From an uncultured Gemmatimonadales bacterium (lineage in GTDB: Bacteria; Gemmatimonadota; Gemmatimonadetes; Gemmatimonadales; Gemmatimonadaceae): DNA of 64,000 bases. Shown here in pieces: positions 926 to 12,886 of the stretch (within the stretch, counting starts at the first letter, position 1; every line of letters starts with the position of its first letter). The translations under genes and the position numbers were made by a program. The stretch is from positions 800,001-864,000 of the forward strand of contig CAWBZV010000003.1 of NCBI GenBank assembly GCA_963793305.1, in the 5' to 3' direction. Under the pieces are notes generated by a model. The model did no database searches and had not been told where the DNA came from. It saw only the letters and a list, made by a program, of their open reading frames with translations.

Positions 926-980
926 AGATCCAATGCCACAGGGGGTTAGCGAGATACCGCTGTGCGGTCCGTCGCGTGCT
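840..980 (+). promoter_or_regulatory. Putative sigma-54 promoter with upstream activator-site repeats
   Basis: GG-N10-GC at 966-979 (cGGtccgtcgcgtGCt); ATTTGCG at 840 and 849 and its complement CGCAAAT at 865 and 886. Confidence 0.45.
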
Positions 981-1018
981 TAAGAACGCCTCCGACTCTC
1001 GCGCCCGGAGGCGTGTTC

Positions 1019-4000
1019 GTGCTCACGAATTGTTGGCGGTTCGTTCTTGTTGTTGTCTGCGCGTTGCTCGTCGCACTCGCTGGTGGGGTTCAGACGGCGT
1101 CCGCTCAGGTCGTCCCGCACCCACCGCGTCCATTCATCTGCATGCCCGGCCAACCCGGGTGTCACACGTATCCCCCCTCGGCGAGCATCAGCCCGACCAC
1201 TGAGACGGTCTCGTCGCGGACGCTGGCGGTGACGGTGACGCTGTGTGACAGCGTCAGCCTCGGAGCCGATTCGGTCGTCTTCAACGGCACCAACAACACG
1301 AGCGCCTTCACGGTCACGAACGTGACCGGATCGGGCCAATGCGCCGTGGAGAAGAAGCTGACCGCGACGCTTCCGCCACTGAACCTCGGGGCGAACACGC
1401 TCGTCGCGTACGTCTACAATGACTTCAGTGGCAACCTGACGAGCTCCATCGCATCCGTCACGTATACATACAACCCACCGCCGAGCGTCAGCGTGACGCC
1501 GAAGGGCAGCTCGCTCTCGCTCCCGACCTCGGCCTCCGACTCCGTCACGTTCACCGTGACGAGTCTCGAGTCGGGATCCGACAGCGCCGCCTTCACGTGC
1601 TCGGCGCCCGGCATCACCACGAGCTGCACGGTGGTGGCCGGGAAGCGATTGGCGGGCGGCGCCAACGCGCCGATCGCCGTACACCTCAATCAGCCGGCGG
1701 CCGCGACGGGCACGGTCACCTTGACCGCGACGATGACGGGGACCCTGGGCTCCGACAATGGGACCATCAACCTCACGCTCATCGATCGCACCCAAGTCCT
1801 GCGGATCGTCGCCGGCGGAGGGATACAGCAGGTGTTGCCGAGTGCCGCCATCGTCGCGCCATTCACGGTGACGAACTACGGCAACCTGCAGGACACCGTC
1901 AACCTCAGTACCACGTGCCCGGGGTCGGCGTTGAGTGGCAGTTGCACGCCGTCGGTCACCTCCTTCACGCTGACTCCGGGGGCATCGCGTGCCGTCACGG
2001 TGAGCGTCGCGGCCGGCACCACGGTCGGTGCGACCGGAACGGTGGGGTTGGTCGGCGCACTCGCCAGTGGTGGCGTGCGCGACAGCGCGTACACCGACAT
2101 CACCATTCGCGCCGCCCGCTCACACGGCGTCGAGCTCGGCGCGGTGAACGACTTCTCGCAGCAGACGCCCGCCCTCTGCTACGCGCGGGCGATCGTGCCG
2201 CGCGCGGCGTACGAGTGTGGCAACCTCCGCATCGCCCATGCCCTGCCGGCCGTCCGGACCTACAACAAGGTCCGGGTGCCGACGCTGCTGTACAGTAGTC
2301 AGCTCGCGCACCCGCATCCCGTGATCAATGCGATCATCACCCTCGACGCGAGCCAGGGCACGCCCGACAGCGTCCTCGGGCAGCTGATGGATGGGAGTGG
2401 CAATACCCTCGGCCATGGCAAGTGGGCCGGCGCCTCATTCGCCAACGGCGCGTCGCGCGCGGTGAGCATCGGTTACAACGCGAGTGGCGTGACGACGAAC
2501 GAGTACAGCTGGAAGGTGCAAGCGCAGGCGTTCTATCCCGATACGATGCTCCCCTACGTCACGAACGAGTTCTATGCGCTCGTCAGCGCGCAGGCCTCGC
2601 ATCTCGGACACGGCTGGACCGTGGCCGGCGTCGAGTCCATGCACGTCTACTCGTGCGGGTGCTCGATGTTGTGGAATTCGGCGGATGGCAGTGCCGAGTT
2701 TTACTCGAACCAGAGCACGGGTTCGTCGTCGACGTTCGCGCCAACGTCGGGATTGCTGACGCGGCCCGACACGATGAAGACCGATCACTCGACCGGGGTG
2801 CTGCACTACATTCGCTACGCGCCGCACGGCGTGCAGGTGATCTTCGATTCCACGGGGCATCATCTCCAAACGCGCGACCGCCTCGGGCACGTGACCACCT
2901 TCACGTACGTCAATGGGACGGACGTCGCCACCATCACGGTGCCGGCGCCGGGCGCGACGCTAACCTATCAGTTCGTGTACGACGGCACGACGCACATGTT
3001 GGACTCGGTCATCGCGCCGTCCGTCGGGGGGGAGCCGACCCGCGCCACCAAGCTCACGATCAACAGCGCGGGCGATGTGACGGCGATCCGGGACCCGGAT
3101 GGGATGTCGGTCACGTTCAACTATCGCACGGGTGGCGACTCCGACGTCATCACGTCGCTCACGGATCGCCGTGGCACGTATACGGCCTTCACCTACGATG
3201 CCGCGCGGGAGCTGGCGACCGCAACGGTCGACTCGACGAGCGGTGGATTCAATCTGACGACGAGCTTCGCCGGCGCGAACGCCTCGACGCTCACCGCTGC
3301 GCTCAACCAGGATTCGGTCTCGATGCTCGTGAACGGGCCGCGGACCGATGTCAGCGATACGGCGCGGATCTGGACGAATCGCTTTGGCCAGCCGGTCCGG
3401 CTCCGCGATGCGCTCGGCTACGAGACCGACCTGACGATGGGCAATACGACGTACTTGGCGGAGGTGACCCGACTCCGCCACCCCAACGGCCAGGTGCTTG
3501 GCGCGGTCCCCGATCCACGTGGCAACCTACAGAGCGAGACCGACTCGAGCCTCGTCAGCGGTGGTCAGTACGCCACGACGGCCTATACGTACGATGGCAA
3601 GTTCGACTTCGTCACGAGCATCACACCCCCATTGCTCGACGCGACGACGTTCACGTACGACACGGTGAATGGAAATCGACTCACGGCGCGGAATGCGCTC
3701 GGCGACTCGACCACCATCAACTACTTCTACGGCAACAGCGACTCGTTGCTCTCATCATCCCAGCCTCCCCACACGGCCAAGGACTCGATCCAGTACGATG
3801 GCGTCTTCGGCAACGTCGTGGGCGAGATGACGCCGCTCGGGTATTGGACGCTGACCCTCCTCGACGGGTATGGTCGGGATTCGTTGGCCATCACGCCCCT
3901 TCCGGCAGCCGACAAATCGCACGACCCGACGGGCGCGGGCGCCGTACGCGATACGACGGAGACGTTGTACGACCCGCTCGATCGTCCCTACTTCACGCTG

Positions 4001-6574
4001 ACGATCGCGCCGACGTACAACGGCGTGGTGCGCCAGACATCGAGCGTGCTCACCGACTACGACGGGGAAGGCGCCGTTCTCTCGACGCAGATCCAGCCAT
4101 CGCCGGACCCCAACAACATTGAACTGATCACCACGTTCCACTTTTATGACCGCGTCGGGCGGCTGAGCTACACGCAACATCCAGACAATTCGAAGGACAG
4201 CACGTACTACGACGCCGCTGGGAACGTGGATACCATCTATACCCGGCGCGGATACAAGATCCCTCAGGCGTTCGATGCATTGAATCGCATCGTGAAGCGC
4301 ATCGTGCCCTCGGTGTTCTACCCCAAGGACTCGATCGGCATTCCGGCGTTGACGGAGCAGAAGAGCTTCTACCTCACACAGAACCCGCCGTACGGCAATC
4401 TCACGATTCCGGGCGACAGCGCGGCGTTTCGCTATGACGAAGTCAGCAATACCGTCGAGGCGGACAATGCCGATGCGCGGATCAGCCGTGTCTACGACGC
4501 CGCGGGCCGGTTGCTCACCGAGACACAGCGCGTCCGCACGCGTGATGGTCAGAACTTCAATACGCACATCTACACGGTGGGGTACGGCTACGATCGCGAC
4601 AGCCGACGCACACTGGTCGTGCATCCAAGCCAGCTGGCGGCGATCGTCAGCGGCCAGTCCCGCGATACGTCCATCTACGGGTACGACCTGGCATCGCACG
4701 TGAGTACTGTGCGGGACATTCTCGGCGGAACGTTCACCTATGGGTACTCGGCCCGTGGCGATCTCATATCGTTGGCATTCCCCGATGGCGCGACCGAGGA
4801 GCGATTCGGGACCGATGACGACGGGCGCTTGACGAACGATTCGATCGGCCCCCTCAGCGGGGCGGCGAATTCGCGGAAGACGGCGCTGACCTACGATGCG
4901 CGCGGCAAGATCCTGACGGGGGTCAACACCTTCGGCATCCAGGACAACGTATCGGCAACGTATTCCGCCATGGGACACGTCGTCGTGCACAATGCTTCAT
5001 TCATCTTTCCGGCGTACGACGGCAGTCCGCAGCAGAACGGCACGGATGACGAGACGTACACACTGGATCCCCTGGGGAATCAAGTCAGCTCGACCTCGAG
5101 CACCAATATCGCCGTCGGGACCATCTCTGATCCGACGACCAGCCTCGCGTTGGCGGGCTACAACAACCGCATTGGGGAGCAGACGGTGCGTCAGGGAGGG
5201 AGCGCCGGTGTCCATGGCTCAGCCGACGCGCTGTTATACGACGCGGAAGGCAACCTGTACGGGACCTATCAGACATCAATCGTGCAGGGCGACCCCGCGG
5301 TAGATCTCTTCTCGTACTATGGCGCGGACAATCGGCTCCGCATGGCGGACAATCGAACGGTCGCCAATGCGTTCGTCCAGACGCTGACGATTTCGAGCCG
5401 CGCGCTCGAGACCTATCGCTACGACGCGCTCGGCCGCCGGGTGTTCAAGCAAGCCGACGACTGGTGTCCGACCAACACGACGGTCTGGAACTACTGCCAT
5501 CGCGCCACGCTGCGCCGCTTTGTGTGGGACGGCGCGCAAGAGTTGGACGAAATTCAGACGCAGGATACCGCCGTCGTATCGATTGCCGAAGCCGACACCG
5601 GCGTCGTCAAGCTCGGCATCCAATGCAATGGCGTGTGCTCCGACAACAACAAATTCTTCGGTCGAGTGCTGTACACGACCGGATTGACGGTCGACCAGCC
5701 GTTGGCGGTGACGCGTGTGGACTATGCCGACTCGGCGACCGTCGTCAATGGCTTAGCCGGCACGCCGGTGCCGTACTATGTCCACCCGCCACTCACGTTC
5801 GTGCCGGTGTGGAACGCCTACGGCCGGTGGGACGCTGTTCTCGATTACGAGTGCGTGACGATGCCGGGCAGCACGCAGCCGCGCTGCGTCGACTCGCAGG
5901 TCGAACTCGGACTCAATCCATACGACAACCTGCACGTCAACGTCCTCAGTTATATGGGATCGATGTTGGAGGACAAGCGCGATGAGACTGGGACACGATA
6001 CCGGCGGGCTCGCACGTACAATCCGACCACCGGGCTGTTCACACAGGAAGATCCCCTCGGCCTCGCCGGCGGGCTCAACGCCTACGGCTTCGCGGAAAGC
6101 GACCCGGTTAATTATTCCGATCCTTTCGGGTTGTGTCCCTTCGGTCAGGTGGTGTGCAACCTCTTCAATAGTTACGCGAACTGGCGTGACGATCAGGAAA
6201 GTGAGTACAAGGAATTTCACGGCGGCGACCAGGTGGTCGCGCTCGAGGTCCCCGGCATATTTGCCGCTGCCAGCCCCGAAGGCATCGCGGAAGGACTCGG
6301 GGAGATCGGAGAGCAATTCGAAAACATCTCAAACGAACTCAAGACCTCGAATCACTTTCAAGCGGCTCGGATGGAGCAGACGGGCCGCCTGGAGACAGGT
6401 GCCGATCACGCGCATGAGCTCAAGGACTTCGCCAACGGCCTGCGCAACTCCGCGGTCAAACTGAAACGTATCTTGAGTAATCCCAAGCTCGAGGCTGCGG
6501 TTCGTAAAGATGCACAGGAGCTCCTCAGCAACGTCAGCATACTGCGCGACCGTATCATGGAGGCACTGAAGTGA
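1019..6574 (+). CDS. RHS/YD-repeat polymorphic toxin with signal peptide, Ig-like N-terminal domains and Ntox28-like C-terminal toxin
   Basis: Likely start GTG 1019 after GGAGG (1007-1011); hydrophobic leader ending ASA-Q; YD repeats; core RARTYNPTTGLFTQEDPLGLAGGLNAYGF..DPVNYSDPFGL; variable C-terminus. Confidence 0.92.
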   Translation: MLTNCWRFVLVVVCALLVALAGGVQTASAQVVPHPPRPFICMPGQPGCHTYPPSASISPTTETVSSRTLAVTVTLCDSVSLGADSVVFNGTNNTSAFTVTNVTGSGQCAVEKKLTATLPPLNLGANTLVAYVYNDFSGNLTSSIASVTYTYNPPPSVSVTPKGSSLSLPTSASDSVTFTVTSLESGSDSAAFTCSAPGITTSCTVVAGKRLAGGANAPIAVHLNQPAAATGTVTLTATMTGTLGSDNGTINLTLIDRTQVLRIVAGGGIQQVLPSAAIVAPFTVTNYGNLQDTVNLSTTCPGSALSGSCTPSVTSFTLTPGASRAVTVSVAAGTTVGATGTVGLVGALASGGVRDSAYTDITIRAARSHGVELGAVNDFSQQTPALCYARAIVPRAAYECGNLRIAHALPAVRTYNKVRVPTLLYSSQLAHPHPVINAIITLDASQGTPDSVLGQLMDGSGNTLGHGKWAGASFANGASRAVSIGYNASGVTTNEYSWKVQAQAFYPDTMLPYVTNEFYALVSAQASHLGHGWTVAGVESMHVYSCGCSMLWNSADGSAEFYSNQSTGSSSTFAPTSGLLTRPDTMKTDHSTGVLHYIRYAPHGVQVIFDSTGHHLQTRDRLGHVTTFTYVNGTDVATITVPAPGATLTYQFVYDGTTHMLDSVIAPSVGGEPTRATKLTINSAGDVTAIRDPDGMSVTFNYRTGGDSDVITSLTDRRGTYTAFTYDAARELATATVDSTSGGFNLTTSFAGANASTLTAALNQDSVSMLVNGPRTDVSDTARIWTNRFGQPVRLRDALGYETDLTMGNTTYLAEVTRLRHPNGQVLGAVPDPRGNLQSETDSSLVSGGQYATTAYTYDGKFDFVTSITPPLLDATTFTYDTVNGNRLTARNALGDSTTINYFYGNSDSLLSSSQPPHTAKDSIQYDGVFGNVVGEMTPLGYWTLTLLDGYGRDSLAITPLPAADKSHDPTGAGAVRDTTETLYDPLDRPYFTLTIAPTYNGVVRQTSSVLTDYDGEGAVLSTQIQPSPDPNNIELITTFHFYDRVGRLSYTQHPDNSKDSTYYDAAGNVDTIYTRRGYKIPQAFDALNRIVKRIVPSVFYPKDSIGIPALTEQKSFYLTQNPPYGNLTIPGDSAAFRYDEVSNTVEADNADARISRVYDAAGRLLTETQRVRTRDGQNFNTHIYTVGYGYDRDSRRTLVVHPSQLAAIVSGQSRDTSIYGYDLASHVSTVRDILGGTFTYGYSARGDLISLAFPDGATEERFGTDDDGRLTNDSIGPLSGAANSRKTALTYDARGKILTGVNTFGIQDNVSATYSAMGHVVVHNASFIFPAYDGSPQQNGTDDETYTLDPLGNQVSSTSSTNIAVGTISDPTTSLALAGYNNRIGEQTVRQGGSAGVHGSADALLYDAEGNLYGTYQTSIVQGDPAVDLFSYYGADNRLRMADNRTVANAFVQTLTISSRALETYRYDALGRRVFKQADDWCPTNTTVWNYCHRATLRRFVWDGAQELDEIQTQDTAVVSIAEADTGVVKLGIQCNGVCSDNNKFFGRVLYTTGLTVDQPLAVTRVDYADSATVVNGLAGTPVPYYVHPPLTFVPVWNAYGRWDAVLDYECVTMPGSTQPRCVDSQVELGLNPYDNLHVNVLSYMGSMLEDKRDETGTRYRRARTYNPTTGLFTQEDPLGLAGGLNAYGFAESDPVNYSDPFGLCPFGQVVCNLFNSYANWRDDQESEYKEFHGGDQVVALEVPGIFAAASPEGIAEGLGEIGEQFENISNELKTSNHFQAARMEQTGRLETGADHAHELKDFANGLRNSAVKLKRILSNPKLEAAVRKDAQELLSNVSILRDRIMEALK

Positions 6575-7236: not shown

Positions 7237-7545
7237 AAATCGTTCCTGAAGGCATCCATCTCGTGAGCCTCGGTCGCCGTCACGGGCACATTGCGTGTCG
7301 AATCGACCGTCTCCGACGCGAGCAGTTGATCCAAACAGCCGCTCATCCTCGCGCGCTACGCGCGCCGTGCGCGCGATCGACGCCTCGACGTCCACCGGCT
7401 CGCTGGCGGCTTCGACGCTCAACCAGAGGCCGATCCTGGCCCACTCCGCCGCAATCGCGGCCACTGTGTCATTGACTCCGGCGTCGGGCGAATGCTTGGC
7501 AGCTGTCGTCCTCATCTCACTTTGCCTGCGTGCCAGGCCAGGCAT
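7237..7545 (-). pseudogene. Probable fragment of a hypothetical gene fused to the FkbM remnant
   Basis: Protein-like stretch IAAEWARIGLWLSVEAASEPVDVEASIARTARVAREDERLF that then loses coding character. Confidence 0.3.
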
Positions 7546-8225
7546 CGAGCGCCGTCACCGCGGGCGCGCTCGAAGATAAGTTGGATGCTGCAGGTACGGT
7601 GAATCGCCGAGCGCGAACTTACGATCCTCTCACGGGGCGGCTTACGCAGGAGGATCCGGCCGGGTTAGCTGGAGGGCTGAATGAGTACGGTTTTGCAGCC
7701 GGTGATCCGGTCAACTACAGTGATCCGTTCGGCCTGTGTCCACCATGCGACGGCAATGGCGTGTCGCCCCAGCGCCACCATACACCGACCGCTGACGAAG
7801 AGGCATTGCAGGGCCCCGGACTGCTTGATCCTGTCGCAATCGGGACTGGGTTCTTGGCGGGTCCGGTGGATGCTGCGATCACTGGGGCGATAGAACGCGC
7901 TGGTGCGGATGCTGCAGCCACATCGGCTGCCAAAGCGGGCACCAAGGTGTATCGGGTTTTCGGCGGGGAGGCGAAGCCCATGGGTCGCTATTGGACTCCC
8001 GTAAATCCCGCAGAAGTAGCAGGCTTCCGGGCTGCGGCGGGGCTGCCAGTCGAGAACACGGGCCGATTCGTGATCGAAGGGGTGCTGCAGGATGCTACCG
8101 GAGTGCAGGTAGGGCGTGCGGCGGCCGGTGCAGGCGGTAGGGGTGGGATCCCTGAGTTCTTGGTTCCCGCGCCGGCGAAACAGATTCAAATTATAAACGT
8201 GTCTGGCGCGAACCCACCATTCTGA
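7530..8225 (+). CDS. Orphan RHS module 1: truncated RHS core plus C-terminal toxin (possible ADP-ribosyltransferase/NADase fold)
   Basis: LEDKLDAAGTVNRRARTYDPLTGRLTQEDPAGLAGGLNEYGFAAGDPVNYSDPFGLCP parallels the main RHS core; tip has VYRVFGG..GRYWT..GGIPE; no convincing start codon. Confidence 0.85.
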   Translation: MPGQASSAVTAGALEDKLDAAGTVNRRARTYDPLTGRLTQEDPAGLAGGLNEYGFAAGDPVNYSDPFGLCPPCDGNGVSPQRHHTPTADEEALQGPGLLDPVAIGTGFLAGPVDAAITGAIERAGADAAATSAAKAGTKVYRVFGGEAKPMGRYWTPVNPAEVAGFRAAAGLPVENTGRFVIEGVLQDATGVQVGRAAAGAGGRGGIPEFLVPAPAKQIQIINVSGANPPF

Positions 8226-8232
8226 GGGGGGC

Positions 8233-8622
8233 ATGAGCGACAAGGGTCCAGATTTCTTCCTTGGCTCGAGCGACAGCCGCGGTGACTTTGCGCGCGCGCG
8301 TGCAGCATCGGCGCGCGCGCGCCTCGCCGGGCCGAACAACGTTCAGTATCTGTGGATTCGCGTTGAGCCGGCGATAATCGGACAGCCGTACGGCTTAGGC
8401 GGAGCGGATATTCACGACCTGATAATCGCTCCGCACTACGACGGCAGTACCTTGTTCCCGATCAAGGAGTTTCCCATGCCTGTTGTCGTTTACCGTGCAT
8501 TAAGCGATCGGGTGTTCGAGACACTTCGATTCGGTGAAGAAGACGTCTCTAACATCGCATGGGGAGAGCTGTACCGGACGCGCGACGCGGCGGTAGCCGC
8601 CTCGGGGGGCGAAACTCTCTGA
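8233..8622 (+). CDS. Putative immunity protein for orphan toxin 1
   Basis: 129 aa ORF 7 nt after the toxin stop, with GAGGGG RBS. Confidence 0.75.
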   Translation: MSDKGPDFFLGSSDSRGDFARARAASARARLAGPNNVQYLWIRVEPAIIGQPYGLGGADIHDLIIAPHYDGSTLFPIKEFPMPVVVYRALSDRVFETLRFGEEDVSNIAWGELYRTRDAAVAASGGETL

Positions 8623-8677
8623 CGCCACGCTACCTGCAACAAGAGGACAGCGTCTATCCATTTTGCTACGAGTGCGT

Positions 8678-9019
8678 ATGAAAGACCGGTCTTCCAACGA
8701 GCGTCGTGAGCGGCGCGTCGAGTTTCTGGGCGAGCAAGATGGTCCACCGGAGCGCGAACTCAAAGCGCTTCTGCAGAAAGAACTTCGTCGATTCCCTACG
8801 GTGCGGCGAGCCTACCTTGCGCGCGTCGGGTTTGCACCGGATGCTGCAGTATCCGTGGCGTTGTGCATTGCTCCGAGCTCAAAGAATGATCAGGCCATAG
8901 TTCAGACAGTCAGTCGTGTGTTTGGAGCGTACTTCGCTTCTGAGGCTCATCTCGACATCGTCTTTCTTGATGCCGAACAGGAAGAAGATCTGAGACGCGT
9001 CTGTGGTTCGTTCCTCTAA
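8678..9019 (+). CDS. SseB C-terminal-domain-like small protein, possible accessory immunity protein
   Basis: FLGEQDGPPERELK..VRRAYLARV..HLDIVFL pattern recalls standalone SseB_C proteins; ATG 8678. Confidence 0.6.
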   Translation: MKDRSSNERRERRVEFLGEQDGPPERELKALLQKELRRFPTVRRAYLARVGFAPDAAVSVALCIAPSSKNDQAIVQTVSRVFGAYFASEAHLDIVFLDAEQEEDLRRVCGSFL

Positions 9020-9042
9020 AAACCGTGGGAATCCGCTTCGCC

Positions 9043-9170
9043 CGCGGGTCGGGTGTTAATTCGGGCCTCGGTGGGCCGTCTGGATCGCCGGACCTCACAG
9101 TCGTCGCGCGGGTCGAGTGTAAATTCGGGCCTCATCGAGCCTTCCGGATCACTGGACCTCGCGCCTGTCA
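9043..9170. repeat. Two imperfect 64-bp tandem repeats, each an internal-loop hairpin (candidate target-binding loops)
   Basis: Units start at 9043 and 9107 (cgcgggtcgRgtgtWaattcgggcctc...tcYggatcRcYggacctc); outer stem shows a compensatory G-C to A-T change. Confidence 0.85.
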
Positions 9171-9590
9171 TCAGGGCCGCGCCGTGGACAGAGGGGTGGT
9201 CGTCCCACTGACTGAGGCTCGCAGCCTGGGTGTGTTTGCGGACCTCCCCCCGTACACCGCGTGTGACGACCGTGTGTCTCCTCGAGCGTCCACGGCGCAT
9301 TCCGGATCGCTAGGTCTCTCGTCTCACGCGGAATAGCTCGTGATCAGTTGTCAAACAGCGCCGAAGAGCTGCGTGCGTAGTGGGACCTCCACGCGACGAT
9401 CAAAACCTCGGTGCTCGGCGGGTCACGCCGGCACGACACATCTTCATAGACGCTTCGGATCCGAGGGAGACCTAGACGGTTGTATGACGACGGTCACCTG
9501 CGCGAACAGCCAGGGCCGCAAGGAACTTGAAGGTCGAAGCATCTCCCTCCACGCTCGGCTCACCACCCGTACCTTCGTCTTCTCCTCCGT
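9043..9590 (-). ncRNA. Putative bridge/seek RNA downstream of the IS110 recombinase
   Basis: No credible ORF; nested stems 9179-9189/9288-9298 (11 bp), 9198-9204/9265-9271 and 9310-9318/9467-9475; loop segments match target and donor junctions; exact ends unknown. Confidence 0.7.
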
Positions 9591-10858
9591 TCATGCCGCT
9601 CGATACGGCGACTCACGCTGGAGCACCTGCCACCGCCCGGCGTCGAACGGTTCTGCGGTCTGCATGATATGCAACAACATCGGGACGAGCTTCCGGGCGA
9701 TCGCACACACGGCGCTCACCTTGGATCCGCCGTTTCGCGCGACCAGCGCGACGTACTGCTCATGACACAATCCACCCGTCCGGCAGCATCGGCCCGCGAG
9801 CAGGAAGAGCTGGCGTCGGAGCGCCGGCCGCCCGCGCTTCGTCTGTCGGATCCGACTGCGGACGGACGTTCCGCTTTCCTTCCCCGCCAGGTTCATGCCG
9901 GCGAGCTTCAGCACCTGGCGCGGCGAGACGTAGCTCGCCGGCGTGCCGAGTTCGGCGACGAGGGTCGAGGCGCAGACGACGCTCACACCCGGCACCGTGG
10001 TTAAGGCGGCGACGGCCGTGATCTCCTGGGCGAGCTCCGTCAACTGAGCCTCGACCGCCCCGATGTGAAGCCGGACGATCGTCCACCGGGCGAGGAGACG
10101 CCGGATCTCCTGACGGCGGGCACCGCGATCGTCGACCACTCCGATCGTCAATGCCGCGGCCGTCAGGAACGCGTTGATCCGGTCTGGCGCGAAATGGTTG
10201 TGCGAGACCTTGCGGATGAGCGCTCGTACACGCATCGGTCGCTCGGCATCGAGCTCCGCCGGCGTCGACCAGTGCCGGAGCAGCGCGATCGGCGTGCAGT
10301 ACTTCACGTCGGTGAACGTGGCGGTGAACTCCGGCCAGACGACGTCGAGGACGCTCAAGAGTCGGTTCTTGAGTCGCGTCTCCTCGACGGCGAGCCGCTG
10401 GCGCTCGGTCGTCAGGGCCCGAAGGGCGATCGCGCGCGGCTCAAGAAGGGCGTAGCTGACGAACAGACCGTCGCTCACGAGCCGACAGATCAGGCTAGCG
10501 TCTTTCGCATCGTCCTTCCGTGGGCTGTTGTCTTCCATCTCCTTGAGCCGCTTCGTCAGAGCCGAGAGCACCGTGACCACGCGTAGCCGCGCCGGTGCAG
10601 ATCGGCGGCGAAGGTCTGCCCATGGTGGCCCGCGAACTCGATGCCCACGAGCATCCGTTCGCGGGGCACGTTGGGGAACAGTGCGGTGAGATGTGCGTCA
10701 GCAGCATCGAACCCGCCGCGACTCACCGGCACTGTAATGGCCTTGGTGCGACGGCTGTCCGGCCCGCGTGCAACGAGCATGTGAAAAGTCTTGCCGGTGT
10801 CGACACCCACATGGACGCAAAAGGTACGGGCGTACGCGAGCTTGTCGTCGGCGTGCAT
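9591..10858 (-). CDS. IS110-family transposase/recombinase, split by a single-base frameshift near 10581
   Basis: DEDD residues VGVDTGK, GIEFAG, KDDAKDA; C-terminal LTTVPGVS..AELG..LAGM..ESGTS with conserved Ser; adding one G joins ORFs 10556-10858 and 9591-10580 as GYAVVTV. Confidence 0.92.
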
Positions 10859-11062
10859 GGCGCGGGCGAGTAGAGTGTGGTAGCGTCAGCCGGGGGAGGC
10901 CAGACTCTCTCACCCGTGAGAATGTTGCCGCTACACTAATGCACGCTGCATACCACACCTCGCGATCACCAGCGCTCGATCAATGATCGACGGCAAAACA
11001 AAACCCAATGTCGGTGTGCAGCGCTCTATAGTGGCTGCACACTAACATCGGGAGATAGATGT

Positions 11063-11599
11063 GTAAATTACTCGGACCCATTCGGTCTGAGCCCATGCCC
11101 TCCAGACAACGACTGCGGCATCAGCGCGAGCGACGCACTCGCGGCTCTCACGGGCGCGGGTCGGCTCCTTCAGCCCGCGCAAGGACCTCTCGAAGTGGCT
11201 GGTACGATTGCGGTCGCACCGCTGGCCGGGGGAGTGGGGGCAGCCGAGGAGATCAGCGGTGCCGTGATTGCGCTCGGACAGACGCTGAGGTCCGGAGCCG
11301 GTAGCGGGGTTCTGACAGCGGCGGGAGTAGCGGGACGAGTGGCGTCTGCGACCGGCGGCGCCGTTTCCCAGCTAGCCAAGTCGGAAGGTTTCAAAGTCAC
11401 GGTGGACGCCGGGCGAGCTATTGTCGCTAGAATTAAGTCTACTGGCGACATCCGTGTGGGTATCGACGGCATCGGCTCACTGACACGCGAGGGCGTAGTG
11501 TCCGCGAATCGAGCGCTCACCCATCTGAAGAACCTGTCGAGCCAAGAGATAATTGGTCTCATCAACAAGGCTCGTGAATTGCTCGCAGCGCCACGCTAA
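11063..11599 (+). pseudogene. Orphan RHS module 2: displaced C-terminal toxin beginning exactly at VNYSDPFGL
   Basis: In frame upstream of ORF 11195: GTA AAT TAC TCG GAC CCA TTC GGT CTG = VNYSDPFGL, with no RHS core sequence before it. Confidence 0.85.
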
Positions 11600-11623
11600 C
11601 CAACCTCTGACGCCTTATCTCTC

Positions 11624-11959
11624 ATGGATCGCGCCGTCCTGCCGCAGGCACTCAATGGTGGTTACATCGAGGAGTACGAGTTCGACCTGCGTCGGAATCT
11701 ATTCTCCATGCGAGTCCATGTTCTCGACAACGATCTGCTGTCCAGCTATAACGTGCGGTTCGAGAAGTTGAGTCAGTTCGCGATGGATAGTGAGAGCCTG
11801 GGTGACAAAGAGCGACTCGAACTGACCGAGATCTGGATCGACTCGACTCCGGAGTCGTCCAGTACCGAGGAGTGGAGTATTACGATAAGCATGTGGGACA
11901 TTACTCACATTCGCCTGCGGTGCGCCATCATCGTGATCGATGGCGCACCGCTGCGCTGA
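11624..11959 (+). CDS. Putative immunity protein for orphan toxin 2
   Basis: Acidic 111 aa ORF directly after the toxin tip; lower GC than flanking housekeeping genes. Confidence 0.7.
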   Translation: MDRAVLPQALNGGYIEEYEFDLRRNLFSMRVHVLDNDLLSSYNVRFEKLSQFAMDSESLGDKERLELTEIWIDSTPESSSTEEWSITISMWDITHIRLRCAIIVIDGAPLR

Positions 11960-11971
11960 CGACGAGAGACA

Positions 11972-12886
11972 TCACTCTGTCACCAAGAAATTGAACTGCC
12001 CGAGCTCCTGCGCGCGCGCGAAGTCGGAGGTGCTCCCGAGGGGGACCGGCCCGCGCGACGTGATGTAGGAGACGTTGAGGCCGAGGCTGAGGACGCGGTC
12101 GATGATGTGGCCCTCGTTGATCGCCCGCCCGAGAAACTCCATGATCAGCGTCGGCCGCCCACGCGGGCGACGCAGCGTGCGCTCGAATCCATCGAGCAAT
12201 CGCATCTCGTGCCCTTCGACGTCGATCTTGAGCAACGCCGTCTCCGGCGCGATGCCCTCGCGCTCGAACACCTCGTCGAGCGAGACGACCGGCACGTCGA
12301 ATCGCTCGCGCAGGTCGCCCAATGCGGTGCGCCCCGACTCTAGCGTGCTTTCCTGATCGTTCTCGCGAACGTAGAACGTCATCGTGCCCGGCTCGGCGCT
12401 GACGCCCGCGTGGCGCACCTCGACGCGCGGGCTCCAGCCGTTGCGCTCGACGTTCCGTTCGATGAGAGACGCGAGATGGGGCGTTGGCTCGTACGCGATG
12501 ACGCGCGCATGAGGTGCGTGGCTCGCGGCGAGATAGGTGAACACGCCGACGTTGGCGCCAATGTCGAAGATGGTCGTCGCCTCGCGCGCGAGCGATGTGA
12601 AGAGACGAATGGTCGACCAGTCGGCATACTGCTGGAGCGGCTGGACGAGCAGGCTGCGGCAACTCGGCAGCGACAGGTCCAACTCTAATGTGACCACGGA
12701 CGCCCCGAGGTCGATCGACGCGACCGTCGTGCGGTGTGCCGAGCGACAGACGAGCTCTTCGACCGCGCGAGACGCGGAGTTGCCGCCGAGGATGCGGCGT
12801 TGCCCCAAGCGGGCCACCAGCGCGATCAACGGCGGACCGAGTACGGTCGACCCAGTGCGGCGCAACGTGCGCGCGACGACCGACAT
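11972..12886 (-). CDS. FkbM family SAM-dependent methyltransferase
   Basis: IFDIGANVGVFT, YEPTP, LLKIDVEGHE motifs; likely start ATG 12886. Confidence 0.9.
   Translation of the reverse strand: MSVVARTLRRTGSTVLGPPLIALVARLGQRRILGGNSASRAVEELVCRSAHRTTVASIDLGASVVTLELDLSLPSCRSLLVQPLQQYADWSTIRLFTSLAREATTIFDIGANVGVFTYLAASHAPHARVIAYEPTPHLASLIERNVERNGWSPRVEVRHAGVSAEPGTMTFYVRENDQESTLESGRTALGDLRERFDVPVVSLDEVFEREGIAPETALLKIDVEGHEMRLLDGFERTLRRPRGRPTLIMEFLGRAINEGHIIDRVLSLGLNVSYITSRGPVPLGSTSDFARAQELGQFNFLVTE

What the first reader, a model, noticed from the sequence alone, without database searches (positions are those of the whole stretch)
9043..9170. Tandem target-binding loops covering synonymous codon variants of one protein motif
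Seen on the recombinase strand, each 64-bp unit reads stem, left segment, small hairpin, right segment, stem. Unit 2 gives GTGATCCGG (rc 9144-9152) plus GTAAATT (9119-9125), i.e. (G)GT GAT CCG GTA AAT. Unit 1 gives GGCGATCCAG (rc 9080-9089) plus GTTAATT (9055-9061), i.e. GGC GAT CCA GTT AAT. Both encode G-D-P-V-N and differ at third codon positions. Known: IS621 bridge RNA has one such loop. Inference: a multiplexed guide mini-array that targets a conserved peptide motif despite codon degeneracy. Individual matches are only 7-10 nt; the support is their order, orientation and synonymous pattern.
Basis: partly seen in the sequence, partly recalled or inferred. Interest (0 to 1): 0.9.

Follow-up and report, generated by a model that had tools for sequence, protein, structure and literature searches.

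The report
RNA-guided transposon that swaps RHS toxin tips
The two 64-base repeats are guide loops of the bridge RNA of an IS110-type mobile element that aims at the DNA encoding a conserved motif of RHS toxin genes and carries its own toxin tip and immunity genes, so it looks like a natural RNA-guided device for exchanging toxin tips.

Summary
In detail: two 64-bp tandem units (81% alike) at the stated coordinates, each folding as stem / left segment / hairpin / right segment / stem on the recombinase strand, with covariation support. They are the last 128 nt of the 3' non-coding region of an IS110-family element. Unit 2 (window 9104-9166) is the target-binding loop that guided this copy: its left segment equals the left half of an RHS 'GDP|VN' site at 7702-7710, and its right segment equals the right half at 11063-11069 plus the first 2 nt of the element's end. 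In four close relatives the right segment follows the flank's wobble base (4 of 4). Unit 1 is not the donor loop; that lies upstream (about 9397-9443). Unit 1 is a second, and 9261-9324 a third, target-type loop. Related elements carry one to four such loops, decoding to VN, VS, VT and LS variants, and sister elements used different loops. The inserted unit is larger than the IS: it runs 7711-11062 and includes a toxin tip plus immunity genes. The window's recombinase has a one-base frameshift. Use of unit 1, and transcription, remain unshown.

The parts
962..6574 (+). Full-length RHS toxin gene (1870 aa). Its core-end site AGC GAC CCG|GTT AAT TAT is at 6098-6115. Its own tip has a weak Ntox28 match.
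7530..7710 (+). Orphan RHS core-end fragment ending in the left half-site GGT GAT CCG (7701-7709, +G 7710). This is the flank of the inserted element on its cargo side.
   Evidence: Unit 2's left segment matches 7702-7710 exactly.
7711..9019 (+). Cargo of the element. It comprises a toxin tip starting GTC AAC TAC (VNYSDPFGLCPPCDG..., read in frame with the flank, to 8225) and two small presumed immunity genes (8233-8622; 8663-9019, weak SseB_C).
   Evidence: The donor-loop right segment covaries with this tip start in relatives.
9040..9102 (-). Left segment GGCGATCCAG; right segment AATTAAC+AC (decodes GTT AAT T). The element's conserved part ends here (...CGACCCGC, about 9044).
   Evidence: (79.7 bits)
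9104..9166 (-). Left segment AGTGATCCGG; right segment AATTTAC+AC.
   Evidence: (79.2 bits)
9198..9245 (-). 'Unit X': same stems and hairpin, but loop letters differ among close relatives and match nothing found. Target unknown.
   Evidence: Counterparts in L032 and G003 score 20.1 and 16.7 bits.
9261..9324 (-). 'Unit 0', a third target-type loop. Left segment AGCGATCCGG; right segment AGGAGAC+AC (decodes GTC TCC T, V-S).
   Evidence: D2; 32.6 bits
9340..9563 (-). Conserved core of the non-coding RNA holding the donor-binding loop. Left segment AGATGTG(T) is at 9436-9443 and is complementary to the element's first bases. A hairpin follows. Right segment TTTTGAT+CG is at 9397-9405.
9591..10885 (-). 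IS110-family DEDD recombinase gene. It is broken by one missing base near 10580 relative to three intact relatives.
   Evidence: The same letters are seen in contigs of a second sample.
10886..11062 (-). Short 5' non-coding end. The element's terminus reads ACATCTATCTCCCGATG... on the minus strand, with its last base at 11062.
11063..11959 (+). Displaced old tip. It comprises the right half-site GTA AAT TAC TCG GAC CCA TTC GGT CTG (VNYSDPFGLSPCPP..., to 11599), with no GDP before it, and its presumed immunity gene (11624-11959, weak YxiG-like).

Best explanation
Window 7711-11062 is one mobile unit of the IS110 (bridge-recombinase) family, lying opposite to the RHS genes. It encodes a DEDD recombinase and, in the 550-nt region 3' of it, a multi-loop guide RNA.

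Each loop is stem / left segment / hairpin / CGA + right segment / stem. The left segment is complementary to one DNA strand of the right part of a site. The right segment is identical to that strand of the left part, plus 2 nt of the partner site.

The upstream conserved loop binds the donor joint, which is the element's first bases plus the first codons of its own toxin tip. The loops of the finding bind the target: the DNA that encodes ...G-D-P|V-N-Y-S-D-P-F-G-L at the end of the RHS core. Recombination at '|' puts the element's tip, immunity genes, RNA and recombinase behind the host's RHS core, in frame. The old tip is pushed behind the element.

Unit 2 guided this copy. Unit 1 and the loop at 9261-9324 are further target loops for other spellings of the motif (GGC GAT CCA G|GTT AAT T; GCG ATC CGG|GTC TCC T). 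Most likely they widen the range of RHS genes the element can enter.

Shown: the loop fold, the junctions, and the guide-flank and guide-cargo covariation. Inferred: transcription, catalysis, and use of units 1 and 0. This copy is probably dead (frameshift).
For: FAMILY. The recombinase carries Pfam PF01548 + PF02371.

END OF THE ELEMENT. ACATCTAT... directly abuts a right-half RHS site in 13 of 18 copies with a visible junction. Contigs L023 and L026/L077 begin 2 nt before it.

UNIT 2. Its right segment equals flank(7 nt)+AC in window, L030, L031 and L032, where the wobble base is T, A, T, C (4 of 4). Family-wide, the own flank is matched exactly by an own loop in 7 of 18 and with 1 mismatch in 5 more. 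Its left segment matches the left half-site 0.8-2 kb beyond the RNA end, including the variable base: window T, L030 C, L032 C, L084 G, L085 G.

DONOR LOOP. The motif AGATGTG was found in 24 of 37 non-coding regions. The 4 nt of the right segment next to the joint equal the reverse complement of the cargo tip's start in 11 of 12 loci, with four different tetramers: TTGA, GTGA, ATGA, GAGA.

INDEPENDENT CASE. L079 entered a non-RHS repeat through another loop. Its far junction reads rc(GTC AAC AAC ACC GAT CCG)|target right half.

CARGO FUSION. The cargo tip is in frame with more than 1000 aa of upstream ORF in L074, L075, L082, L085 and L086.

SERIAL ELEMENTS. Elements in series, each with a displaced tip at its end, occur in L031.

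FOLD AND STRAND. All 76 model hits lie on the recombinase strand. 20 of 34 copies have 2-4 hits.

TERMINAL LOOP. The guide GTGAATT recurs in 11 of 51 decoded loops from elements only 55-65% identical in recombinase. These include L073 and L086, whose insertions used another loop.
Against: - No RNA run holds the region, so transcription and RNA ends are unknown.
- No promoter-like site was found.
- The fold energy is not exceptional.
- No insertion in the window's clade uses unit 1 or unit 0.
- Unit 1's counterpart has a 1-nt loss in the left segment and a stem mismatch in L030, is degenerate in G003 and is missing in L032.
- Cargo is unrelated between elements that are 84% identical in the IS part, since homology stops at ...GACCCGC. 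Cargo must therefore be exchanged often, or the cargo model is incomplete.
- 5 of 18 end flanks are not RHS-like, and 6 of 18 flanks match no own loop within 1 mismatch.
- The base at the crossover (G or C) is read differently by left and right segments in one clade. I could not define a core dinucleotide.
- L033 breaks the donor-loop rule.
- The donor-loop match is short (4-6 nt).
- Contigs from three other samples show no excision joint.
- The unit model was built from the window's clade and finds 0-1 loops in the L023 clade.
Confidence: 0.65

Rival explanations
1. Unit 2 is the only working target loop. Unit 1, and perhaps the loop at 9261-9324, is a leftover of a tandem duplication or of an earlier specificity, drifting without function. 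The synonymous pattern then only reflects descent from a loop that once matched an RHS site.
For: - 4 of 4 insertions in the clade match the 5' unit, none the 3' unit.
- The 3' unit is damaged in L030 and G003, and L032 works with one unit.
- A tandem duplication of an end is seen in L031.
- With only 4 guide differences between units 1 and 2, 3 at third positions has about 0.11 probability by chance (my arithmetic).
Against: - Unit 1 is the best-scoring unit of all 76 (79.7 bits) and has intact stems and hairpin.
- Multi-loop arrays persist across elements with 55-65% identical recombinases.
- The terminal guide GTGAATT is kept in 11 loops, also where another loop was used (L073, L086).
- Sister elements L079 and L078 used different loops.
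Confidence: 0.27
2. The two units are simply the target-binding and donor-binding loops of an ordinary two-loop bridge RNA.
For: Known bridge RNAs have two internal loops of like build, as stated in passages of PMC11208160. Most relatives also show two adjacent units.
Against: - Neither segment of unit 1 matches the element's ends (ACATCT... / tip start).
- The invariant complement of the end (AGATGTG) and a segment that covaries with the tip start lie about 230 nt upstream.
- L032 has an intact recombinase and one unit only.
- Both units carry the RHS left half GATCC(G/A)G.
Confidence: 0.03
3. The repeats act as DNA, not RNA. They would be protein-binding or recombination sites at the element's end, or a terminator pair for the convergent immunity gene.
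For: - They sit at the very end of the conserved element.
- The plus strand folds more stably, pairing unit 1 with unit 2 (z -2.2).
- Hairpins abut the end in L030 and L031.
Against: - Compensatory changes fit the within-unit helices.
- G-U pairs occur on the recombinase strand only (UG/GU types), and would be C-A on the other strand.
- The loop letters, not the stems, track flanks.
- No T-run terminator was found there.
Confidence: 0.05

Closest known systems
IS621 / IS110-group bridge RNA (Durrant et al. 2024, PMC11208160, passages read; Hiraizumi et al. 2024, PMC11208158, listing only)
   Same: A DEDD recombinase plus a non-coding RNA. Its internal loops each pair with both strands of a site. 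There is one loop for the target and one for the donor joint. The guide carries 2 extra nt that match the partner site, comparable to what I recall as the 'handshake' guide.
   Different: - The RNA lies 3' of the gene, not 5'.
- The order of the two segments in a loop is reversed.
- There are three or four target-type loops instead of one.
- The target is a protein-coding motif.
- The recombinase is about 412-427 aa.
- No Rfam family matched.
IS1111-family seekRNA (Siddiquee et al. 2024, PMC11187229; sections 6, 9, 10, 13 read)
   Same: The non-coding region lies downstream of the transposase. The strand-complementary segment comes 5' of the strand-identical one. The two matches overlap at the insertion point. 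Relatives are naturally retargeted by changes in the loop only.
   Different: - The paper gives IS1111 transposases as 330-350 aa with subterminal inverted repeats. Here they are 412-427 aa, and no such repeats were identified.
- The paper describes one target-matching pair per seekRNA.
Cargo-bearing IS110 elements (Hu et al., bioRxiv 10.64898/2026.08.14.744561; abstract and passages read)
   Same: IS110 elements that include passenger genes. Half-matched boundaries occur. One locus is reported with several donor-binding loops.
   Different: - Their cargo is mostly plasmid-derived and resistance genes. The words 'toxin' and 'Rhs' do not occur in the main text.
- Here the cargo is a toxin tip that must be joined in frame to a host gene, and it is the target loops that are multiplied.
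Rhs orphan-tip displacement by homologous recombination (recalled, e.g. work on Salmonella and E. coli rhs loci; no paper read here)
   Same: Arrays of tip + immunity modules lie behind an rhs gene, and the expressed tip is exchanged at the conserved core end.
   Different: The known route uses homology of a core-end fragment. Here the joint is a site-specific, RNA-specified crossover inside the PVN codons, and the incoming tip travels with its own recombinase.
CRISPR arrays / integron cassettes (recalled, as analogies only)
   Same: Several guides are encoded in tandem in one transcript. Promoterless cassettes are inserted at a fixed site so that a resident gene or promoter expresses them.
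   Different: There are no repeats-and-spacers processing signals and no integrase of the tyrosine family. The guides sit in structured loops of one RNA.

Membership tests
IS110 family (bridge recombinase elements) | DEDD/RuvC-like N-terminal domain plus Transposase_20 C-terminal domain | tested here: met
   PF01548 and PF02371 in the window ORF (E 3.1e-11, 1.2e-15) and over the full length in the intact relative L030 (4.4e-20, 2.9e-15). The window copy is frameshifted.
IS110 family (bridge recombinase elements) | Non-coding RNA loop whose two segments match the two halves of the insertion target | tested here: met
   Unit 2 against 7702-7710 and 11061-11069. 4 of 4 in the clade and 7 of 18 exact family-wide, against 15 of 306 non-self pairs.
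IS110 family (bridge recombinase elements) | Second loop matching the donor joint (both ends of the element) | tested here: met
   AGATGTG is complementary to the first bases of the element in 24 of 37 non-coding regions. The right segment equals the tip start in 11 of 12. The matches are short (4-7 nt).
IS110 family (bridge recombinase elements) | Shared core dinucleotide in donor and target | tested here: inconclusive
   Flanks begin GT (window clade) or CT (L023 clade). The first base differs between the two junctions of one element. I could not fix the cut positions.
IS110 family (bridge recombinase elements) | RNA is made and bound by the recombinase; circular intermediate | not testable with these tools
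   No RNA run is listed. Contigs show no joints.
IS1111 group | Long non-coding region downstream of the transposase gene | tested here: met
   About 550 nt 3' of the gene against about 180 nt 5' of it.
IS1111 group | Transposase of 330-350 aa and subterminal inverted repeats of 7-17 bp (as stated in PMC11187229 and PMC11208160) | tested here: not met
   Intact relatives are 412-427 aa. No terminal or subterminal inverted repeat stood out, but I did not search for one across the cargo-inclusive ends.
Rfam-described RNA families | Match to a curated covariance model | tested here: not met
   cmscan of 8000-12000 at E<=1 gave only a below-threshold flavivirus xrRNA hit at 10678-10755.
RHS / YD-repeat polymorphic toxins (the target) | RHS repeats and a conserved core-end motif followed by a variable tip and an immunity gene | tested here: met
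   PF05593 in the 1870-aa ORF. ...DPVNYSDPFGL... occurs at 6101 and 7704, and a half motif at 11063. The variable tips have weak Ntox28 and YxiG-like matches. That this motif marks the core end is recalled.

The most novel reading that the evidence does not exclude
A lineage of bridge-recombinase elements in Gemmatimonadaceae has become a vehicle for RHS toxin tips. It reads a conserved peptide-coding motif with an array of target loops, each spelling a different codon or residue variant, plus loops for other repeats. It splices its own tip and immunity genes in frame onto any matching RHS core, reversibly, and shelves the old tip. That would be a natural multiplexed guide array for a recombinase, and an RNA-guided mechanism of polymorphic-toxin diversification.
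Probability: 0.5. Interest if true: 0.9.

Novelty: new variant of a known kind. Interest (0 to 1): 0.85.

Why it matters
Bridge RNAs are described with one target loop and one donor loop. Their natural targets are mostly repeats or other mobile DNA.

Here the target is the coding sequence of a conserved protein motif, and the guides show codon-like periodicity. The element's passenger is a gene fragment that only works after precise in-frame joining to a host gene.

If confirmed, this would matter in three ways:
- It gives a site-specific, horizontally mobile route for exchanging RHS toxin tips, beside homologous recombination.
- It shows that nature already multiplexes bridge-RNA guides in one transcript, which is of direct interest for engineering these recombinases.
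- It offers a set of natural guide/target pairs with mismatches at known positions.

Tried and rejected
- Tandem Repeats Finder found no array.
- The Rfam scan gave no relevant family.
- Own-genome BLAST found no other copy of the element or units, so boundaries could not be set within the genome.
- Simple-insertion model (IS = 9044-11062 with the left half-site at its 3' end): rejected. The flank at 9020-9043 and its counterparts in L030, L031, L032, G003 and G017 are ends of immunity genes or hairpins, not GATCCG.
- Unit 1 as donor loop: rejected.
- A 7-nt match between the RNA (GACCCGC, about 9418-9424 by my coordinate conversion) and the end of the conserved element: not kept, because L031 and L032 lack it.
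- Unit X against its own locus: two 9-nt matches in the window's flank (about 8916-8948, by my conversion), but nothing comparable in 5 relatives. I treat this as chance.
- By-eye assignment of loops in the L023 clade failed. Its target loop turned out to lie elsewhere, and the roles of its other loops are unresolved.
- Sequencing runs: no RNA holder is listed. Contigs of 4 runs show no joints, and parts are without cover.
- The promoter/terminator scan was uninformative.
- The search of earlier findings returned nothing for this genome.
- Literature searches for Rhs with IS110, bridge RNA, seekRNA or polymorphic toxin found only incidental co-mentions. I checked one of them, PMC6329079. Supplements of the bioRxiv preprints were not seen and might list RHS-associated elements.

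Full report
OBSERVATION. The sequence at 9043-9170 is as described. The repeat finder reports two 54-nt copies 64 nt apart, 81% identical, and a third partial copy of one arm at 9297-9324. Tandem Repeats Finder reports nothing. One detail differs: the base before GTGATCCGG in unit 2 is A, so the loop spells AGT, not GGT. The repeat and the surrounding 2.5 kb are single-copy in the 5.7-Mb, 26-contig genome, so this is not a dispersed host repeat.

On the minus strand, 9036-9175 folds into two stem / internal loop / hairpin modules, with an ordinary energy (z -1.3). The plus strand folds differently, pairing the units with each other (z -2.2).

CONTEXT. The genes run in this order:
- A 1870-aa RHS gene (962-6574) with RHS repeats.
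- A HEAT-repeat gene.
- An orphan RHS core-end fragment with a tip (7530-8225).
- Two small genes.
- The repeats.
- On the minus strand, an IS110-family recombinase (PF02371, PF01548).

The recombinase is split between two frames. One base is missing near 10580 relative to three intact relatives. A contig of a second sample has the same letters there.

The RHS core-end motif ...DPVNYSDPFGL... occurs at 6101 and 7704. A third copy lacks its left half and starts at 11063...GGGAGATAGATGT|GTA AAT TAC TCG GAC CCA TTC GGT CTG. It is followed by a 178-aa tip and a small gene.

RELATIVES. Close and distant relatives came from several searches:
- whole genomes of the same family (23 of 401 genomes at E<=1e-40)
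- genome contigs (7 loci; titles name Gemmatimonadaceae/Gemmatimonadota MAGs)
- metagenome contigs (12 loci, of which L030, L031, L032 and L034 are 86-92% identical in protein)

In every one of the first three relatives an RHS core-end lies about 1 kb from the repeats, in the same arrangement.

BOUNDARIES. Homology between the window and L030 or L031 runs from ACATCTAT... (window 11062, minus strand) to ...CGACCCGC (about 9044), which is the end of unit 1. ACATCTAT abuts a right-half RHS site (x-N/S/T-Y/F-x-DPxGL) in 13 of 18 copies whose junction is visible. The 5 others are L073, L078, L079, L082 and L083. Two contigs start 2 nt before it.

UNIT 2 IS A TARGET-BINDING LOOP. I write a site as XL|XR on the recombinase strand.
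- The right segment of unit 2, AATTTAC+AC, equals the flank's last 7 nt plus the element's first 2 nt.
- In L030, L031 and L032 the corresponding segments AATTAAC, AATTTAC and AATTCAC equal their own flanks. With the window, that makes 4 of 4 at a position that takes three different bases.
- Over 18 junctions, an own loop holds the own 9-mer exactly in 7 and with one mismatch in 5.
- Non-self pairs match in 15 of 306. No permutation of 10,000 reaches 7.
- The left segment AGTGATCCGG is the left half of the RHS site, GGT GAT CCG G at 7701-7710.
- Its variable base agrees with the full site beyond the cargo in window (T), L030 (C), L032 (C), L084 (G), L085 (G) and G017 (C). It disagrees in G003, L075, L082 and L033.

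The 5' segment is complementary to the element-sense strand and the 3' segment is identical to it. This is the order that PMC11187229 (section 9 and abstract) gives for IS1111-type seekRNAs.

THE INSERTED UNIT INCLUDES CARGO. The sequence next to ...CGACCCGC is never the left half-site. It is the end of a small gene or a hairpin. The left half-site lies 0.8-2 kb further on, joined in frame to a tip.

Three lines of evidence say that this tip and its immunity gene(s) are part of what was inserted.

(i) Both halves of unit 2's site are found only by joining 7710 to 11063, and likewise in L030, L032 and L085.

(ii) The conserved upstream part of the non-coding region holds a loop whose left segment AGATGTG is complementary to C|ACATCT. 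This motif was found in 24 of 37 regions. Its right segment covaries with the tip's first codons:

| Right segment | Tip start | Loci |
|---|---|---|
| TTGA | GTCAA | 6 |
| GTGA | GTCAC | 2 |
| ATGA | GTCAT | 1 |
| GAGA | GTCTC | 2 |

That is 11 of 12, with L033 the exception. The segment is followed by CG or TG, the first bases of the target's other half.

(iii) L079, a member of a clade 82-89% identical in DNA, inserted through a different loop into a non-RHS repeat (CTAAC|GCCGCGGCG, six copies in the locus). Its far junction reads ...GTTGTTGAC|GCCGCGGCG. That is the reverse complement of GTC AAC AAC ACC GAT CCG (VNNTDPFGL) joined to the target's right half.

In L074, L075, L082, L085 and L086 the cargo tip continues an ORF of more than 1000 aa that reaches the locus end, so the element's tip is the expressed tip of a full RHS gene. 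L031 holds two different elements in series, each with a displaced tip at its end.

Against a simple picture: cargo differs completely between elements 84% identical in the IS part. Cargo-bearing IS110 elements with half-matched boundaries have been reported (bioRxiv 10.64898/2026.08.14.744561, abstract and passages), but without any mention of toxins or Rhs.

WHAT UNIT 1 IS. It is not the donor loop (see above). It has the same build as unit 2 and the best score of all units. Its guides read GGC GAT CCA G and GTT AAT T. Its right segment equals the right half of the main RHS gene's site at 6107-6113. Its left segment differs from that site at 3 of 9 positions.

A covariance model built from 12 units finds 76 matches at E<=1 in 31 sources. 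All lie on the strand of the recombinase. The window has three: 9261-9324, 9104-9166 and 9040-9102. Among 34 recombinase copies with at least 750 nt after the stop:

| Matches per copy | Copies |
|---|---|
| 0 | 6 |
| 1 | 8 |
| 2 | 11 |
| 3 | 8 |
| 4 | 1 |

. The model comes from the window's clade and is blind to much of the L023 clade.

I decoded 51 loops, chosen by having GAY CCN in the left segment. This choice fixes D1, D2, P1 and P2.
- The right halves read VN 21, VS 13, VT 4, LS 4, LN 2 and others 7.
- Positions 3 and 6 take all four bases, while position 7 is T in 48 of 51. This is the pattern of codons.
- L072 and L090 carry VS + VN(GTCAACT) + VN(GTGAATT).
- L033 carries VT, VS and VN, plus one loop that does not decode cleanly in this register.
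- The terminal guide GTGAATT recurs 11 times, including in L073 and L086, whose insertions used another loop.
- L079 and L078 used different loops.

These points favour working arrays. Against this: the counterpart of unit 1 is damaged in L030 and G003, L032 has one unit, and no insertion in this clade uses it.

STRUCTURE SUPPORT. On the 12-unit alignment, 85.9% of cells pair (shuffles 77.1 +/- 1.7; 0 of 500 reach it). 7 of 13 pairs change on both sides. Slid controls pair at 25-44%. G-U pairs occur on this strand.

EXPRESSION AND ACTIVITY. Nothing can be said. No RNA run is listed. Contigs from a second sample of one study and from another study confirm both units and the junction at about 9044, but show no excision joints.

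COMPARISON AND NOVELTY. Mechanistically this is a bridge-RNA or seekRNA element. It differs in four ways:
- it has several target loops;
- its target is a coding motif;
- its cargo needs in-frame joining;
- it combines a long IS110-type recombinase with an IS1111-type RNA layout.

The searches of the held library found no paper linking Rhs genes to bridge or seek RNAs. Bridge-RNA variants with longer guides (10.64898/2026.10.21.760802, passages) and multiple donor loops are in print. I found no report of multiple target loops in those searches.

I rate it a new variant of a known kind, of high interest. The adaptive claim for unit 1 is still inference.

Noticed in passing
L079 (recombinase-strand coordinates 472, 1097, 1649, 5498, 5901; junction at 4865): A roughly 60-nt sequence containing CTAAC|GCCGCGGCG recurs every 0.4-0.6 kb around the element. 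It is the target of the first loop (left segment CGCCGCGGCGTAC) of the L076/L078/L079/L080 clade. I did not determine what the repeat is (gene starts or an intergenic motif).
   Followed up: partly
window 9198-9245 (and counterparts in L030, L031, L032, L034, G003): 'Unit X' has the stems and hairpin of the guide loops, but its loop letters differ completely among relatives 80-90% identical elsewhere. No partner sequence was found.
   Followed up: partly
L031:2942-3090: The first ~75 nt of the element (ACATCTACAACCCGATG...GCTGCACTGAC) are duplicated in tandem at the junction with the displaced tip.
   Followed up: no
window 6107, 7710, 11063; G000 C3:171365, C5:1481940: Tips at the active or cargo position start GTC AAC TAC (3 of 4 full sites in this genome). 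The displaced tip and the main RHS gene use AT-rich codons (GTA AAT TAC, GTT AAT TAT) in a genome with about 80% GC3. The target loops of the window's clade are aimed at the AAT spelling.
   Followed up: partly
G000 C3:168890 (outside the window): ...RTV|FNYADPCGL..., a right-half RHS-like motif without the GDP half, about 2.5 kb upstream of another full RHS site at C3:171365. It may be a relic junction of another element.
   Followed up: no
L023, L026/L077 position 1-3; G009 and G017 contig ends: Several assemblies break exactly at, or within about 130 nt of, the element's first base. This would be expected if the flanking tip sequences are repeated or the locus is heterogeneous in the population.
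   Followed up: no
window 11061: One low-depth contig of run X2 reads A instead of G at the second-last base of the element's end.
   Followed up: no
L031:357-1451, L078, L080, L085, L086: A second, only 36-40% identical IS110-type recombinase lineage sits in the same RHS arrays. In L031 its end (..CCCGATACAGGGGT|CTC AAC TAC TCG) also abuts a displaced tip.
   Followed up: partly
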